From NCBI RefSeq assembly GCF_009914755.1, contig NC_060928.1: 64,000 bases of DNA; one strand, written 5' to 3'. Positions 28,858 to 45,135 of this stretch are shown piece after piece; the first letter of the stretch is position 1; every line of letters begins with the position of its first letter. Origin of the DNA: the human T2T-CHM13v2.0 reference genome, Homo sapiens. The notes under the pieces are model-generated. The model was not told where the DNA came from. It worked only from the letters and a program-made list of their open reading frames with translations, and made no database searches. The translations under genes were made by a program, and so were the position numbers.

Positions 28858-29152
<295 letters not shown>

Positions 29153-30116: not shown

Positions 30117-30458
<342 letters not shown>

Positions 30459-33286: not shown

Positions 33287-33386
33287 AAATATATATATAT
33301 ATATAATATATATATATCACATAGATGATATATATGTGATATATATATGATATTCAATTCAATATATTCTATATATATGATATTCA
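33287..33386. repeat. (TA)n low-complexity tract
   Basis: Degenerate TA dinucleotides with repeated tatatatatgatattcaa. Confidence 0.85.
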
Positions 33387-35656: not shown

Positions 35657-36348
35657 TGTGACCGCCCAATGGGTTCACCTTGCCCACTGCCTAGACAAAG
35701 CTGATTTATCAAGACAGGGGAATTGCAATAGAGAAAGAGTAAATCACTCAGAGCCGGTTGTGCAGGAGACCAGAGTTTTATTATTACTCAAATCAGTCTC
35801 CCTGAGCATTCGGGGATCAGAGTTTTTAGGGACAACTTGGTGGGTAGGGGGATGCCAGTGAGCCAAAAGTGCTGATTGGTTAGGTAGGAGATGAAATCAT
35901 GGGAAGTTGAAGCTGTCCTCTTGTGTTGAGTCAGTTCCTAAGTGGGGGCTGCAAGATCAGATGATCTAGTTTATCCATCTAGATGGTTCCAGCTGATCCA
36001 TCAAGTGCAGAGTCTGCAAAATATCTCAAGCACTGATCTTAGGAGCAGTTTAGAGAGGGCCAGATTCTTGTAGCCTCCATATGCATGACTCCTAAACCGT
36101 AATTTCTAAACTTGTGGCTATTTTGTTAGTCCTACAAAGGCAGTCTGCCCTCCAGGTAAGAAGGAGGTTTGTTCTGGGAAAGGGCTGTTATCAGCTTTGT
36201 TTTAAACTATAAACTAAGTTCCTCCCAAAGTTAGTTCAGCCTACGCCCAGGAAGGAACAAGGACAGCTTAAAGATTAGAACCAAGATGGAGTCAGTAAGG
36301 TTAGATCTCTTTCACTGTCTCAGTCATAATTTTGCAAAGGCAGTTTCA
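35657..36348 (-). mobile_element. LTR8-family solo LTR
   Basis: TGTGACCGCCCAATGGGTTCACC...TTTGCAAAGGCAGTTTCA; perfect TSD AGAT. Confidence 0.92.
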
Positions 36349-36761: not shown

Positions 36762-37085
<324 letters not shown>

Positions 37086-37345: not shown

Positions 37346-38012
37346 TAAAACTGCCTTTGCAAATATTGTAACTGAGGCAATTATTACAGTGAAAGAGATC
37401 TGACCTAACTGACTCCATCTTGCTTCTAACCTCCAAGCTGCCCTTGTTCATTCCTGAGCGTAGGCTGAAGTAATTTTGGGAGGAACTTAGTTTATGGTTT
37501 AGCTTTTAAAACAAAGACGTTAACACCCCTTTCCCAAAACAAACCCCATTCCTGCCTAGGGTCTAGATTGCCTTTGCAGGAGTAACAAATGAGTCACGAG
37601 ATCAGAAATTATGGTTGAGGAGTCATGCAGCTGGAGGGTGCAAGATTCTATACCTCCCCAAATTGCTCCTGGGGATACCATCACTATTTTAAAACATAAG
37701 ATGAGATCCTGAGATATTTTGCAGACCCTGCACTTGATGGATTAACTGGCTCATCTGACCTTGTGGACCCCACCAAAAAACTGACTTAGTGCGAGGACAA
37801 CTTCGACTCCCTGTGATTTCATCTCTGACCTGACCAATCAAAACTCCCAATTCACTGGCCTTCCCCCTACCAACAAAATTATCCTTAAAAACTCCGATCC
37901 CCAAATGCTCAGAGAGACTGATTTGAGTAGTAATAAAACTCCGGTCTCCCACACAGCCTGTTCTGCATAAATTACTCTTTCTCAATTGCAATTCCCCCAT
38001 CTTAATAAATCA
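37346..38012 (+). mobile_element. LTR8-family LTR lacking its 3' terminus, inserted in a MIR
   Basis: aaactgcctttgcaaa...aattcccccatcttaataaatcag is the reverse-complement homologue of 35657-36348; MIR-like sequence on both sides. Confidence 0.88.
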
Positions 38013-38075
38013 GTAATAAGCAACATATCAATTGTTAGCTATCAATGTTATTATTATTACTATTATTACTAGTAT

Positions 38076-38656: not shown

Positions 38657-40285
38657 GTATTAGTGAGAGAAAGCCAGATGTTTATCTTTTATTTTCTACT
38701 AATTCAATGAACAATTTTACAAAATTATAAACTTTTTGCAGCTTATTTTACTTTTAAGGAAAGAATTGCCAGTTAATATACAAGACCTTTCCTAACACTA
38801 AAAATATGAATTTCAAACTGAAGCAAAGCTGTTCTTAAAATATTTAAAATGAAGTGTATTTAAGACTACTTTATTTTTACATTACATATTATTATAAGAC
38901 AACCTCTTAGATACTATAGAATAATACATTAAAATTTTTATTACCTATATATTTTATAATGTGATTTCATTTTAAAACAAAATTATGTTAATAGGTTTTT
39001 CCCACATTATTTTTTTCTGACATTATAATTGATATATGCATTTTTTTACCTTGAATCACTATTTACAATTATTCCTAGAAAGAAAAAAATGTCAAAATGT
39101 GTCGTTTCTTTCTCTATAATGATATTCTGTGTGAATAGATGCATCTGAGATTTTTTCTCATTTCAATTCATTTCACATGTAATATTACATAGCCTGGAGT
39201 ATAAACAAAAACTAAAAATAAAAACACATATTTCTTAGCTTGTAACAGCTATGATACACTTCCTGTAAAGAAGAAATAACCTAACCAAAATAGCAGTTTC
39301 AGAAAACACCTCTTCAAAGAGAAATTGTTTAGAAAAGGTATGATCTTAAAAGAAGAGCTGAGATGTTAAATAGTTAAGTTTTTACCTAAAAAATCAAACA
39401 CCTATAAAACATCAATATTTCTAATAATCATTAATCTTTGGCTTACAAGTACCTGGGGCGGGAAGCTTGTTACTTAACAAGGCATCACATTCCTTTGCAT
39501 TTCTGAAACACTCAAATTGAGTCACAAGTCGCCTCCATGTCATTTCCCTTCAGAAGTCCCGCCTCTACCCTCTATTTTGTAAGAAATAAATGCACTATCT
39601 TAAGATATTTCTTATGACATGATTCTTAGCTTTTAACTATCCTAATTGTTCTTCCCTAGTCATTCGTCTTTGACAGTTTTCCTCTGAAAATCTCAGGCAA
39701 TTTCACAGTCATTTCTTGTTTCCTTTCTAACATGAAATACACAAATGTAAACTTAATGAAGCACACAGTTGAAAATCAGAGGACTGCATTTTTTTTTCCT
39801 TTTGTACAACAACTTTTATTCTGCTTCTTCAACAAACATCTTAGAACATAGTAGCAACAAAAACATACATTTAGTCCAAAAATTAGAATGACCTATTTCA
39901 GGTCAATTAAATTTAAATGGCTGCCATCAATCCCTTTGCTTTGCATTTTATCATCAAGCATTATGTTACTGATTTTAATGTCCAGTTAGCTACTTATCTA
40001 TTTTTATTTGTTGCCAAAATTAATTTCTTGGGTTTCTATTATGCGGTAAATCTATTCTATAAAGAGCTGAGAAAGTGTTATGCCTTAATTGTAAAATTAG
40101 GAGATAAAAAATCAACTTGTTTAAACATATTGCCAAACTCACCAATAAGTATGAAACATGAAATAAAGTTCTGTCATCCAATTTGTGAGAAATCAAACAC
40201 ATATATTCTCAAAGATAATTAGAAACCAACTTCTCTCCACAGTTTACCTCTGAATGAATAGGCACATACCTGGTGTTTTTATTAA

Positions 40286-40551
40286 TTCCACCCCCAACCC
40301 CCACATATAGATGAAAATTCTACCATGCTGCCCCAGCTGTAAAGGAGTCACCTGCAATCCTGAGTGAGACATTCTTTGTGATGACTTCTTCCAAATATTG
40401 TAGTTATACAATTGTAGTTATACAATCTACAGGAATAGATATTTGGAAGAAGTCATCACAAAGAATGTCTCACTCAGGATTGCAGGTGACTCCTTTACAG
40501 CTGGGTCAGCATGGTAGAATTTTCATCTATATGTCGGGGTTGGGGGTGGAA
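40286..40551. repeat. Long near-perfect inverted repeat: 113-bp arms, 40-bp spacer
   Basis: 40286-40398 is the reverse complement of 40439-40551 with 2 mismatches by hand alignment. Confidence 0.97.
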
Positions 40552-41361
40552 ATTGAAGAATGATGATAAATAAGAATAAAAGAAAAATGGAAACATACTT
40601 TTCTGGAATTTAAAATAACTCATGATCTAGCCAAGTTTGTTTTTACAAATATTAAATGAAATTCCAAAAATCTATAAATACAAAATTGCTGTTAGCAATA
40701 CAGCCGGTAGGAAGGTGAGGAAACAGGGCATGCTCTGTTTGAATAAAGTTAATATAAGTGAATAATAAATTATGGGAAGAGAAATAGGCACTCTAGTAAC
40801 TTTGCTTCTTGAAGAACATGTTTTATGCATTTATGAAAATTCTCCCATAAATTAAGTAATGCATTAAAGAATGCAAGAAAAGGTAAACATTTTATTCAAA
40901 CCAGTTGTGTTTCATTTCCCAGTTTTATTATATACCATGGAAAAGTGATTTTAAATTCCTAACTAAACCCTGACTTGCATCAGAAAATAATCTTCAATTC
41001 CACTTTTAAATTTACTTTTAAAAAGGAAAATGTGTATTTTACTGAAATCTTGTATTAATAAGATAACTTTGCTTTTTATATAACACTTTGGCCAGAAATC
41101 CTGAGTTTTACTCTATGTACTTGCTTACGTTTATCTGATGCATCTTAACAATAAATCTGTGACAATTTAGGCAATGCTGGTAAAGAATATCTTTAGTTAA
41201 ACCAAACCAAAGCTGTGCTAAAGGTTGTAACATCATGTGCTGGCAGTTCCAAGTGAATTAGGCAAACTCTAATTTTACTAATTCAAAGATTATTAGGTAT
41301 GTACTTGAGGTAACTGTCACATGCAACTTGAAGATAATCCCAAGATTTAGTCTGGGACTTT

Positions 41362-41914
41362 TGTTACTGGAAAGGTGTCCCCATCCAGACCCTAAAAGAA
41401 GGTTCTTGGATCTTTCCCAAGAAAGAATTCAAGGCAGGTCCATAGAATAAAGTGAAGGCAAGTTTGTTAGAAAAGTAAAGCAATAAAAGAATCGCTACCC
41501 CATGGACAGAGCAGCCCCATGGGCTGCTGATTGCCCATTTTTATGGTTATTTCTTGATTACACGCTAAACAAGGGGTGGATTATTCATGCCTCCCTTTTT
41601 AGATCATATAGGGTAACTTCCTAACATTGCCATGGCATTTGTAAACTGTCAGGTGCTGGTGGGAGTGTAGCAGTGAGGATGACCAGAGGTCACTCTCATC
41701 ACCATCTTTGTTTTGCTGGGTTTTGGCCGGCTTCTTCCCATGCAACATGTTTTATCAGCAAGGTCTTTATTACCTGTATCTTGTGCTGACCTCCTATCTC
41801 ATCCTGTAACTTAGAATGTCTTAACCTCCTGGCAATGCAGCCCAGCAGGTCTTAGCCTCATTTTACCCAGCCCCTATTCAAGATGGAGTTGCTCTGGTTC
41901 AAACAGATCTGACA
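41362..41914 (-). mobile_element. MER41A solo LTR
   Basis: TGTTACTGGAAAGG...GGTTCAAACAGATCTGACA; perfect TSD CTTT; colinear with MER41A consensus as recalled. Confidence 0.92.
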
Positions 41915-42514: not shown

Positions 42515-44064
42515 TAATGATGATTTGCTTTTTGAAAGGATCATTGAAGGTTGCCCTCATGTTCTATAAATACTACCCAGGGATATGTCTCACCAATTAT
42601 TGATACTCTCTGAGCATCTTGCGAATGTGCAGTTTGAAATTTTTATACTTATCTGTGCATTAAGTCAGTAGAATTTTGTACAGGCTATTCTCTAACTCCT
42701 TGAGATATGGCCATTAATGTGTAACAAATATGTAGTGGTAAGACTACCACTAATTACCCACTCTAGGGAATTTATCCAAAGAAAATAATTCAACAGAGGA
42801 AAATTTCATTTACAAACATTAATTGCAGTATTATTTATAATTGCAAACCATTACAAATATCCTAAATGTCCAACAGATAAATATTTTTATATCTATACAG
42901 ATGAATGTTTTGTAGGCATAAGCTTGTATTTATGAAGATAATTTGATGATAAATATGAAGATATTTATAAAATCATGTGAACTGATAAAAGCACAATGTG
43001 GTCTTAATAATATAAGAAATATACAAACATTTTAAATTTGTTAGAAGGACAAATGGACTTAGTCTGGATAGGTTTTCTAATTGTAAATTGATTTTTTTCT
43101 TTAAAAATGCTCTGTACCAATGTTATACAGTTGCATAAAATAAAGTCAGTCTAATCATCTGGTTTACGATACTACAGAAATAGCAGAATACTACCTCTAT
43201 CAGATAACTGCCCATGTTTTTGGAGCATGTCTAGTTAAAATGATAGGATCATATTTGAGTTTATTCTCTCCTGGGTAAGTACTGCACAGTAAAGACAAAG
43301 AGATGAGATCTATGGCAATTTATACAGGTAAAAGAATCTAAGATACATGAATGATAACATTCTATTCAAAACTGAGTCAGAAGTGCTTGGGTAAGATAAT
43401 ATTGACTGCTATTATTGAGCCTGCATCTGTCCTTCACTGTGCCTTATATTTATTATGTCACCTAATTGCCACAATTATGTTATGTGATTGCTATTCTTAT
43501 GAGCTCTATATTATCGATGAGGAAACCAATTCGTAAAGAAATTGACTTGCCTGAATTGCAGAGCAAGTAAATGTCCTAACCATATTTAAAGCCAGTTCTG
43601 TGTAGCCCCAGACCCTTTGACTTTAGCCACTATACAGTAGTAGTTATAGCATGAGCTTTGATTTCAGGTTCAAGTTAATCTTGATGAGCATAGGCATGCT
43701 TTTTCATTCCTGCCAACTTCAGATTTCTCTTGGTAAAATGAAATAATTGGAACACCTTTTTCCAAAGAAGTGTTCTGAGGCTTAGCAATATAAAACTTGT
43801 CATTTCATCCGTTCATTCAGCCAAAATTCATCAAACAGCAACTTTGTACCAATTCTTCAACTGTAGCTAGGAGATACTATGATGACTCAAAGAAGAGATA
43901 AAGACTTAATCAAAATACTTATGCAAATTAATGCATAATTGCCAAGTGTGTGAAGTATTATGAAAGAAAAATAAGTGGGGGGGATGTCTTTAATACTTCA
44001 GGGATTGGATAAGTCTTCCCTGCGGAAATGCTACATCATCTGAGATCTGAAAGATAAGTAGAAA

Positions 44065-44687
<623 letters not shown>

Positions 44688-45135
44688 GAAAATTCTTAAA
44701 CAGACAGCATGTGAGCTTCTCTGGCAGAGCACTGCATGCGTAAAGACCCTGAAGCAGGAGATGTGTGTTTGTCGAATCAAAATTAGGCAAGTAAATGACC
44801 TTCTGTTTCTAAAGCAAAAGAGCAGCATAAAATGATGCCAGAGAGAGGAGCATGGGCCACAAAATGAAGAGCCCTTTCGACCATTTAAATGATGTTGATT
44901 TTTTTTTTCTTTCCTTAGAGGAATGTAAGTCATTTAAGGTTTTTGACTAAAGCAAGAACCTAATCAGATTTGAGTTTGAAAAGAATGGAGAAACAGTGAG
45001 GGATGATAGAAGTGGGGAGATAAATTAGCAAATGCCGTGTGGGGGCGGGGCGGTGGATACAAGTAGACTAGACTAAAGCCAGACTCTGAGGATTTCAAAC
45101 ATTTAATCATTGAAGCCAGCTGAGCAACTTCATAA

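What the first reader, a model, noticed from the sequence alone, without database searches (positions are those of the whole stretch)
40286..40551. 113-bp near-perfect palindrome in apparently unique DNA with a scarred, self-duplicated loop
Seen: arms 40286-40398 and 40439-40551 are reverse complements at 111/113 positions. The 40-bp spacer holds a 14-bp tandem duplication (attgtagttataca x2, 40397-40424), each unit itself a mini hairpin (ttgta..tacaa). I recognise no repeat family or TSD, and the arm identity is far higher than between the paired LTRs in this window, so it is young or homogenised by arm-to-arm conversion. Inference: made by multi-step replication template switching (fold-back). 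If transcribed from either strand it would give a ~113-bp dsRNA stem, a candidate de novo miRNA/endo-siRNA hairpin or ADAR substrate; in DNA it could extrude a cruciform.
Basis: partly seen in the sequence, partly recalled or inferred. Interest (0 to 1): 0.8.

Follow-up and report, generated by a model that had tools for sequence, protein, structure and literature searches.

The report
Single-copy 113-bp inverted duplication
A 113-base stretch of ordinary single-copy human DNA sits next to a backwards copy of itself, most likely left by a one-off copying slip during replication or repair, and nothing suggests it has a function.

Summary
Arms 40286-40398 and 40439-40551 are reverse complements at 111 of 113 positions. 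They are separated by a 40-nt AT-rich spacer that holds an exact 14-bp tandem duplication. No shuffle folds as well (0 of 200; z about -30).

The arm sequence occurs nowhere else in this 3.1-Gb genome. The same search finds 84-88% identical repeat copies for neighbouring DNA. There is no target-site duplication, and complementarity stops sharply at the outer ends. A MITE is therefore rejected.

The best reading is a local inverted duplication made by polymerase template switching (fold-back). A 14-bp slippage in the loop and two substitutions came later. This mechanism is inferred, because no outgroup or haplotype data were available. At 113 nt it lies in the far tail of documented template-switch events (mean 11.6 bp, per-person maxima 97-180 bp).

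The RNA-gene idea has no support. No Rfam family reaches threshold, the stem is about three times pri-miRNA length, and the site is intergenic and CpG-poor. Cruciform extrusion would cost about +60 kcal/mol. This is a real, tidy, probably neutral example of a known kind, of low to moderate interest.

The parts
40286..40398 (.). Left arm of the inverted repeat (113 nt, 45% G+C)
   Evidence: (I1); the only other place in the genome that matches it is the right arm
40399..40438 (.). Asymmetric AT-rich spacer (40 nt, 27.5% G+C); it would be 26 nt before the 14-bp duplication
   Evidence: its last 14 nt (40425-40438) have no template within 1 kb at up to 3 mismatches, and none in the window beyond chance
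40397..40424 (.). Exact 14-bp tandem duplication; its first 2 nt overlap the end of the left arm
   Evidence: D3: 40397-40410 and 40411-40424, 100%
40397..40426 (.). Two overlapping 16-nt mini-hairpins (6-bp stem, 4-nt loop) at 40397-40412 and 40411-40426
   Evidence: inward pairing at k = 13-18; fold of the centre, -4.8 kcal/mol
40427..40438 (.). CTACA (40427-40431), complementary to TGTAG at 40399-40403 and 40413-40417, followed by an unpaired 7 nt (40432-40438)
40439..40551 (.). Right arm, the reverse complement of the left arm at 111 of 113 positions
   Evidence: (I1)
40302..40302 (.). Mismatch 1: C here faces C at 40535; the right-arm version contains the arms' only CpG
40331..40331 (.). 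Mismatch 2: C here faces T at 40506

Best explanation
This is a local inverted duplication of 113 bp of single-copy intergenic DNA. It was most likely made in one event, when a DNA polymerase left its template a few tens of bases past one arm. The polymerase re-annealed by a short microhomology (the self-complementary ATAT at the inner arm ends) to the complementary or nascent strand. It copied the arm backwards and returned to the original template at the outer edge. This is a template-switch (fold-back) mutation. Afterwards the loop gained a 14-bp slippage duplication and the arms gained two substitutions. Today it is most likely a neutral structural relic. It can form a very stable hairpin when single-stranded, but the 40-nt spacer damps both cruciform extrusion and fork stalling. 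There is no sign that it is a gene. Shown here: the anatomy, the single-copy status, the sharp boundaries, the absence of a TSD and the folding energies. Inferred: the mechanism, the order of events, the age and the neutrality.
For: The arms are 111 of 113 complementary with a 40-nt spacer. The arm sequence is present only at this locus. The 113-nt arm, the 1113-nt left flank plus arm and the 366-nt whole unit each match only this place. A 34-mer with up to 3 mismatches hits once forward and once reverse, against 0 and 0 for the reversed-pattern control. The same tool recovers 84-88% identical copies for neighbouring repeats, so its sensitivity is adequate at that level. Complementarity ends abruptly: 18 of 60 outward positions pair, which is chance level, as expected for the copy of a discrete fragment. 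There is no TSD. The spacer's right-hand 14 nt have no nearby template, which fits native sequence that was replicated before the switch. In print, template switches create perfect hairpin stems in a single event at loci with no prior similarity (PMC10710096, Results read). Their length in human haplotypes averages 11.56 bp, with per-individual maxima of 97-180 bp in unmasked DNA (PMC9435742, passages). So 113 nt is rare but within range.
Against: No outgroup or second human haplotype was examined, so the derived state, the polarity and a single-event origin are unproven. 113 nt is about ten times the mean template-switch length. The centre is not clean: it holds a 7-nt unpaired stretch and a 14-bp duplication, which need either native spacer plus one later event or extra steps. 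The two arm differences give only a loose age of 17.7 My (95% 2.1-63.9) at 0.5e-9 per site per year, or 8.8 My (1.1-32.0) at 1e-9 (the rates are recalled). Arm-to-arm conversion would make the true age older. Neutrality is assumed from context, not tested.
Confidence: 0.7

Rival explanations
1. The product is the same but the process differs. A double-strand break was repaired by snap-back synthesis (synthesis-dependent microhomology-mediated end joining, or MMBIR). A resected 3' end folded on a short hairpin at the centre and primed on itself. Alternatively, an initially near-perfect palindrome (117-nt arms around the GTTA loop) was later scarred at its centre by hairpin nicking and end joining.
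For: A ready-made 6-bp/4-nt-loop mini-hairpin abuts the inner end of the left arm, and a 5-bp TGTAG/CTACA pair lies in the spacer. Either could prime a snap-back. Snap-back priming at structure-forming sequences during alternative end joining is described in PMC5728401 (search listing and start of abstract only). Hairpin-nicking and slippage models for palindrome rearrangement are cited in PMC4319165 (passages).
Against: The PMC5728401 abstract describes 'limited' synthesis, whereas 113 nt is long. The perfect-palindrome version needs one more event: a 14-nt insertion for which no template was found in the window. Present-day sequence alone cannot separate the break-repair model from the fork-based model.
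Confidence: 0.15
2. It is a functional or nascent hairpin RNA locus (miRNA-like, endo-siRNA or ADAR/dsRNA-sensor substrate), with the high arm identity maintained by selection or conversion.
For: If transcribed, either strand would fold into a stem of about 113 bp (-221.5 kcal/mol). Template-switch hairpins have given rise to annotated human miRNAs. A multi-copy LTR-like repeat starts about 0.8 kb downstream, at about 41355. TE promoters within 1 kb are considered possible drivers in PMC10710096.
Against: None of the 8 Rfam matches at E <= 10 reaches its gathering score (best: plant MIR530, 51.3 bits against 85). The matches fall on both strands and to unrelated taxa, as a generic long hairpin would. 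The stem is about three times the ~35-bp pri-miRNA stem. RefSeq lists no transcript here, and the nearest gene is a lncRNA 26 kb away (hub annotation). CpG o/e is 0.10-0.16 around the site, with no CpG-rich window within 3.6 kb. Only 57 of 6,054 (0.9%) suitable genic TSM hairpins are annotated miRNAs, and 99 of 111 (89%) TSM miRNAs are intragenic.
Confidence: 0.05
3. It is a miniature inverted-repeat transposable element (MITE) or another mobile element with long terminal inverted repeats.
For: The shape, two long inverted arms around a short AT-rich centre, resembles a MITE. A self-complementary AATT lies at both outer edges, offset by one base.
Against: There is no other copy in 3.1 Gb at the sensitivity tested, while the same tool finds thousands of candidates for true repeats nearby. 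The 8-nt flanks differ, so there is no TSD. 98% arm identity is inconsistent with the age of human DNA transposons (recalled knowledge).
Confidence: 0.02
4. It is an assembly or library artefact in this genome assembly (a chimeric fold-back read incorporated into the consensus).
For: It could not be checked against reads or a second assembly. Palindromic chimeras are a known sequencing artefact (recalled).
Against: The arms differ at 2 positions, and the centre is asymmetric with its own internal duplication. In-vitro fold-backs should give perfect arms. The structure is 266 bp inside unique sequence, which long accurate reads should span many times (inference).
Confidence: 0.03

Closest known systems
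Template-switch mutation (TSM) hairpins of the primate lineage (Monttinen, Frilander & Loytynoja 2023, PMC10710096; Loytynoja 2022, PMC9435742)
   Same: An inverted copy of immediately adjacent unique sequence gives a perfect or near-perfect stem with sharp boundaries. No repeat family and no TSD are involved. Later point mutations occur in the stem.
   Different: At 113 nt it is about ten times the mean event length (11.56 bp) and lies among the per-person maxima of 97-180 bp. It is intergenic, not intronic. It is not annotated or shown to be transcribed. The ancestral state was not reconstructed here.
Recombinogenic long inverted repeats (criteria of Wang & Leung 2006 as quoted in PMC4319165) and closely spaced inverted Alu pairs (Lobachev 2000 and Voineagu 2008 as cited in PMC7999016)
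   Same: It meets the quoted criteria of stem >30 bp, identity >85% and spacer <2 kb. It is hairpin-capable on single-stranded DNA.
   Different: It is made of unique DNA, not two transposon copies. Its 40-nt spacer lies between the 12-bp spacer that stalls forks and the 52-bp spacer that does not stall them in eukaryotic cells. No instability was shown here.
Palindromic AT-rich repeats (PATRRs) and spacer-less near-perfect palindromes (718 longer than 200 bp in the catalogue summarised in PMC7999016)
   Same: Long, nearly perfect two-fold symmetry in non-coding DNA.
   Different: The arms are 45% G+C rather than AT-rich, and the 40-nt asymmetric spacer would exclude it from spacer-less catalogues. 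The calculated cost of cruciform extrusion is +60.3 kcal/mol.
MITE-derived hairpin RNA genes (for example MADE1-derived miRNAs; recalled, not tested)
   Same: A palindromic DNA unit able to give a hairpin transcript from either strand.
   Different: Those are multi-copy with TSDs. This one is single-copy without a TSD.

Membership tests
MITE / non-autonomous DNA transposon | Many related copies dispersed in the genome | tested here: not met
   The arm, the arm plus flank and the whole unit match only this locus. A 34-mer with up to 3 mismatches occurs once forward and once reverse, both at this locus. Controls: neighbouring repeats return 40 scored hits out of 1784 and 3738 candidates.
MITE / non-autonomous DNA transposon | Target-site duplication flanking the terminal inverted repeats | tested here: not met
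   The 8-nt flanks differ. The only shared feature is a self-complementary AATT offset by 1 nt.
MITE / non-autonomous DNA transposon | Match to a curated repeat consensus (Dfam/Repbase) | not testable with these tools
   No repeat library is available. The stretch is not among the masked stretches listed by the hub.
Template-switch (fold-back) inverted duplication | Reverse-complement copy of sequence lying within a few hundred bases, with discrete boundaries | tested here: met
   The arms are 40 nt apart and 111 of 113 complementary. Pairing outside the arms is at chance level (18 of 60).
Template-switch (fold-back) inverted duplication | Ancestral or outgroup allele lacks the inverted copy, and the difference is explained by one switch-and-return path | not testable with these tools
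   No primate or second human haplotype sequence is held. A supplement search of PMC9435742 for the approximate GRCh38/hg19 coordinates (derived from recalled gene positions) found 0 occurrences in files 2-12 of 22.
Template-switch (fold-back) inverted duplication | Length within the documented range | tested here: met
   113 nt compares with a mean of 11.56 bp, per-individual maxima of 97-180 bp in unmasked DNA and a longest event of 318 bp (PMC9435742 passages).
miRNA gene (pri-miRNA hairpin) | Match to a described RNA family | tested here: not met
   0 of 8 Rfam matches at E <= 10 reach the gathering score; the best is 51.3 bits against 85.
miRNA gene (pri-miRNA hairpin) | Stem of about 35 bp with an unstructured apical loop of at least 10 nt | tested here: not met
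   The predicted stem is about 113 bp with two single mismatches, and the loop is partly self-paired. The criterion is as stated in PMC10710096.
miRNA gene (pri-miRNA hairpin) | Transcription and precise ~22-nt read stacks | not testable with these tools
   No expression data are available. No transcript is annotated in the hub's RefSeq table.
Cruciform-prone palindrome (PATRR-like) | AT-rich arms with little or no spacer, so that extrusion is easy | tested here: not met
   The arms are 45% G+C and the spacer is 40 nt. Two hairpins minus the duplex comes to +60.3 kcal/mol by nearest-neighbour DNA parameters, with no junction term.
Recombinogenic long inverted repeat (Wang & Leung criteria) | Stem >30 bp, stem identity >85%, internal spacer <2 kb | tested here: met
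   113 bp, 98% and 40 nt. The criteria are as quoted in PMC4319165. Meeting them is a formal classification, not evidence of instability.

The most novel reading that the evidence does not exclude
The palindrome is a very young, ape- or human-specific locus that may still be polymorphic. It would be transcribed, for instance by read-through from the LTR-like repeat 0.8 kb away. The transcript would give a ~113-bp near-perfect dsRNA that is diced into endo-siRNAs or heavily A-to-I edited. That would make it a de novo hairpin RNA gene caught right after its birth by one unusually long template switch.
Probability: 0.04. Interest if true: 0.6.

Novelty: new member of a known kind. Interest (0 to 1): 0.25.

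Why it matters
If the reading is right, this is one of the longest clean examples of a template-switch inverted duplication in unique human DNA. It has an informative centre (a mini-hairpin, a slippage duplication and an unpaired stretch) and few later changes. With complete ape genomes and pangenome haplotypes it could be dated. Its switch points could be read directly and its stability across haplotypes measured. That would give a small natural test of how long palindromes arise, how a spacer stabilises them and how often they become transcribed. It changes no established view. The mechanism, its frequency and its link to new hairpin RNAs are already in print.

Tried and rejected
- **Repeat-family membership.** Four own-genome searches found no further copy, so the MITE reading was rejected.
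- **Rfam.** Only sub-threshold, shape-driven hits to unrelated hairpin families on both strands.
- **Extension of the inverted repeat outward.** None; 18 of 60 positions pair. An eroded older, longer palindrome is therefore unlikely.
- **Base composition as a sign of foreign origin.** The arm G+C of 0.451 is reached by 8.4% of 113-bp windows in the local unique stretch, so it is not an outlier. G+C is 0.42 just left of the left arm and 0.20 just right of the right arm. This hints only weakly that the left arm is the native one, and I do not rely on it.
- **A nearby template for the spacer's last 14 nt.** None within 1 kb at up to 3 mismatches. There is 1 hit in the whole window at up to 2 mismatches, against 0.6 expected for shuffled queries.
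- **Rarity sample.** I planned 100 stretches of 10 kb. In those 200 kb my scan (11-mer seed, arms >=30 nt, >=90% identity, spacer <=300 nt) found only two pieces of one head-to-head pair in L017, which looks like Alu (family name recalled). In the 64-kb window it found only the reported palindrome. The sample is too small to give a genome-wide rate.
- **Print searches for the locus.** 'PCDH18' with 'inverted repeat' returned 0 papers. 'PCDH18' with 'palindrom' returned 1 unrelated paper.
- **Supplement search of PMC9435742.** Approximate coordinate prefixes gave 0 occurrences in files 2-12; files 1 and 13-22 were not searched. The coordinates were derived from recalled gene positions, so this is a weak negative.
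- **DNA between the arms of the larger upstream inverted pair.** The search was swamped by an Alu and told nothing more.

Full report
**Observation.** The sequence at 40286-40551 is as described. The repeat finder on 39500-41500 gives arms 40286-40398 and 40439-40551, 113 nt long, 98% complementary, with 40 nt between them. It also gives an exact 14-nt direct repeat at 40397-40410 and 40411-40424. A script places the two non-complementary positions at 40302(C)/40535(C) and 40331(C)/40506(T). With 10 nt of flank on each side, the strand folds as RNA at -221.5 kcal/mol, against a mean of -68.7 (sd 5.0) for dinucleotide-preserving shuffles. That is z = -30.3, and 0 of 200 shuffles fold as well. 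As DNA it folds at -141.1 against -28.2 (sd 3.7), z = -30.4, with 0 of 200. Among the 22 inverted pairs found in the whole 64-kb window (seed 12, length >=30, distance <=3000), this is the only one at 95% complementarity or above; the next best is 90%. Apart from a 77% AT-rich quasi-palindrome at 33288-33368, it is also the only one with less than 1 kb between the arms.

**Copy number.** The 113-nt arm matches two places in the 3.1-Gb genome: itself and the other arm. The left 1 kb plus the arm gives only those two matches even at E <= 10, with a single first-look candidate. The 366-nt unit with 50-nt flanks matches only itself, once on each strand. A 34-mer from the arm, allowing up to 3 mismatches, occurs once forward and once reverse, both at this locus; the reversed-pattern control gives 0 and 0. 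The search does see diverged repeats. The right-hand query picked up 39 copies at 84-87% identity of a repeat beginning near 41355, out of 1784 candidates with 40 scored. A stretch 4 kb upstream returned 39 copies at 85-88%, out of 3738 candidates with 40 scored. The tool warns that it skips very common words and scores only the best candidates. Copies below roughly 75-80% identity could therefore be missed, and no repeat library (Dfam) was available.

**Boundaries and centre.**
- Outside the arms, pairing falls to chance at once: 18 of 60 positions pair.
- The 8-nt flanks are different. The only shared feature is a self-complementary AATT at both edges, offset by one base. This could be a 4-nt continuation of the copy with a 1-nt slip, or it could be chance.
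- The arms are 45% G+C, the spacer 27.5% and the 200-nt flanks 29%. The arm value is reached by 8.4% of 113-nt windows in the local unique stretch, so it does not mark foreign DNA.
- The centre reads as follows: the left arm ends in ATAT, then TGTAG (40399-40403), a 9-nt stretch, TGTAG again (40413-40417), the same 9 nt, CTACA (40427-40431), seven unpaired bases (40432-40438), and then the ATAT that opens the right arm.
- Each 14-bp unit plus the next two bases is a 6-bp/4-nt-loop mini-hairpin, at 40397-40412 and 40411-40426.
- Removing one 14-bp unit leaves a 26-nt spacer.
- The last 14 nt of the spacer have no template within 1 kb at up to 3 mismatches. In the whole window there is one hit at up to 2 mismatches, against 0.6 expected. 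They look like native sequence rather than a templated filler.

**Age.** Two differences in 113 sites give 17.7 My (95% Poisson 2.1-63.9) at 0.5e-9 substitutions per site per year, or 8.8 My (1.1-32.0) at 1e-9 (the rates are recalled assumptions). Conversion between the arms would make the structure older than this. Errors made during the copying itself would make it younger. The data do not say whether it is human-specific, ape-wide or older.

**Mechanism (inferred).** The anatomy is an inverted copy of the immediately adjacent unique sequence, with sharp ends, no TSD and no family. That is what polymerase template switching produces.
- PMC10710096 (abstract and the whole Results section read) shows that such switches generate perfect stems in one event at loci with no prior similarity. 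It counts 53,666 putative events in genic regions on the lineage to human, of which 31,007 created a new stem. It notes that most such loci later gained point mutations.
- PMC9435742 (passages) gives a mean event length of 11.56 bp, per-individual maxima of 97-180 bp in unmasked DNA and a longest event of 318 bp. So 113 nt is a far-tail event but not unprecedented.
- The simplest path has four steps. Synthesis passes one arm and about 26 nt beyond it. The 3' end re-anneals through the self-complementary ATAT at the arm's inner end. The arm is then copied backwards, and synthesis returns at the outer edge. A later 14-bp slippage and two substitutions follow.
- Which arm is the original cannot be told from this sequence, because the two models are mirror images.
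- A break-repair version (snap-back priming at the mini-hairpin; PMC5728401, listing and start of abstract only) cannot be separated from the fork-based version with the data in hand. Nor can a perfect palindrome whose centre was later scarred (models cited in PMC4319165 passages). The scarred-palindrome version needs one more event, whose 14 nt have no identifiable source.

**What the structure can do.**
- On single-stranded DNA, each strand forms a hairpin of -140.4 or -144.0 kcal/mol.
- From duplex DNA, two hairpins cost +60.3 kcal/mol relative to the 266-bp duplex (-344.7 kcal/mol), before any junction penalty. This is mainly because 40 bp of spacer must stay unpaired. Spontaneous cruciform extrusion is therefore unlikely without strong supercoiling (inference).
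[quoted passage not shown] With a 52-bp spacer they stall forks only in E. coli. It also reports that longer, more similar arms and shorter spacers raise the risk. A 113-bp arm with a 40-nt spacer sits near the tolerated side.
- The repeat formally meets the 'recombinogenic LIR' criteria quoted in PMC4319165 (stem >30 bp, identity >85%, spacer <2 kb). That is a classification, not evidence of breakage.

**RNA reading.**
- None of the 8 Rfam matches at E <= 10 reaches its gathering score. The best are plant MIR530 (51.3 bits against 85), a Wolbachia sRNA (39.6 against 65.3) and mir-1419 on both strands (32.6 against 62). That is what any long perfect hairpin gives.
- The stem is about three times the ~35-bp pri-miRNA stem stated in PMC10710096.
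- The hub's RefSeq table shows no transcript over the site; the nearest gene is a lncRNA 26 kb away.
- CpG observed/expected is 0.10-0.16 in the surrounding 0.7-4.3 kb. The nearest CpG-rich 200-bp windows start at 44186.
- An LTR-like multi-copy repeat begins about 0.8 kb downstream (the label 'LTR-like' is my recollection of such sequences, not a tool result). A TE promoter within 1 kb therefore cannot be excluded.
- In PMC10710096, only 57 of 6,054 miRNA-sized genic hairpins are annotated miRNAs, and 99 of 111 template-switch miRNAs are intragenic.
- I put transcription with any small-RNA or editing outcome at about 5%.

**Rarity.** I intended to scan 1 Mb of other euchromatic DNA but received only 200 kb: 20 stretches of 10 kb on contigs C2 and C3. 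With one scanner (arms >=30 nt, >=90% identity, spacer <=300 nt), the 64-kb window gives only the reported palindrome. The 200 kb give only two collinear pieces of a head-to-head pair in L017, which I recognise as Alu. Such structures are clearly not common, but the sample is far too small for a genome-wide rate.

**In print.** Searches for 'PCDH18' with 'inverted repeat' (0 papers) and with 'palindrom' (1 unrelated paper) found no description of this locus. A search of the supplements of PMC9435742 for approximate GRCh38/hg19 coordinate prefixes found nothing in files 2-12 of 22; files 1 and 13-22 were not searched. The coordinates came from recalled gene positions, so this is a weak negative. 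The supplements of PMC10710096 were not opened; that genome-wide scan covered genic regions only.

**Verdict.** The origin by template switching is the best-supported explanation (0.7), with a break-repair variant at 0.15. It remains inferred until an outgroup allele is seen. The hairpin-RNA and cruciform suggestions are possible in principle but unsupported. This is a new, unusually long member of a known kind, of low to moderate interest.

Noticed in passing
window 35701-36318 and 37386-38013: A much larger, older inverted pair lies 2.3 kb upstream. Its arms are about 620 nt in several collinear pieces at 71-90% complementarity (I3, I4, I7, I10, I13). Unlike the reported palindrome, its arm belongs to a high-copy family: 3738 candidates, with scored copies at 85-88%. 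An Alu-like insert lies between the arms at about 36768-37083. I did not resolve whether this is one element with long inverted ends or two insertions of one family.
   Followed up: partly
window 41355-41760: A multi-copy repeat, LTR-like by my recollection, starts about 0.8 kb downstream of the right arm. 39 scored copies at 84-87% identity cover query positions 957-1153 (sequence). Its orientation and family were not determined.
   Followed up: partly
window 28858-29082 and 30216-30440: An inverted pair of 225 nt at 85% complementarity, 1133 nt apart (I1, with I14 alongside). The printed pieces look like Alu (recalled). It is an ordinary inverted Alu pair.
   Followed up: no
window 33288-33368: An AT-rich quasi-palindrome with 39-nt arms, 77% complementarity and a 3-nt spacer, inside (TA)n-like sequence (I20).
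   Followed up: no
L017:9560-9820 (G000:C3:112009560-112009820): In the 200-kb control sample there is a head-to-head pair of Alu-like sequences (recalled label). It shows two collinear complementary pieces (44 and 43 nt, 91% each) and only 26 nt between the inner ends. Closely spaced inverted Alus are said to be rare in the human genome (title of Lobachev 2000 as cited in PMC7999016).
   Followed up: no
window 44186-44806: This is the only CpG-rich patch within 10 kb of the palindrome: 7 windows of 200 bp with CpG o/e >0.6 and G+C >0.5. It overlaps a stretch that the hub lists as masked repeat (44056-44692).
   Followed up: no
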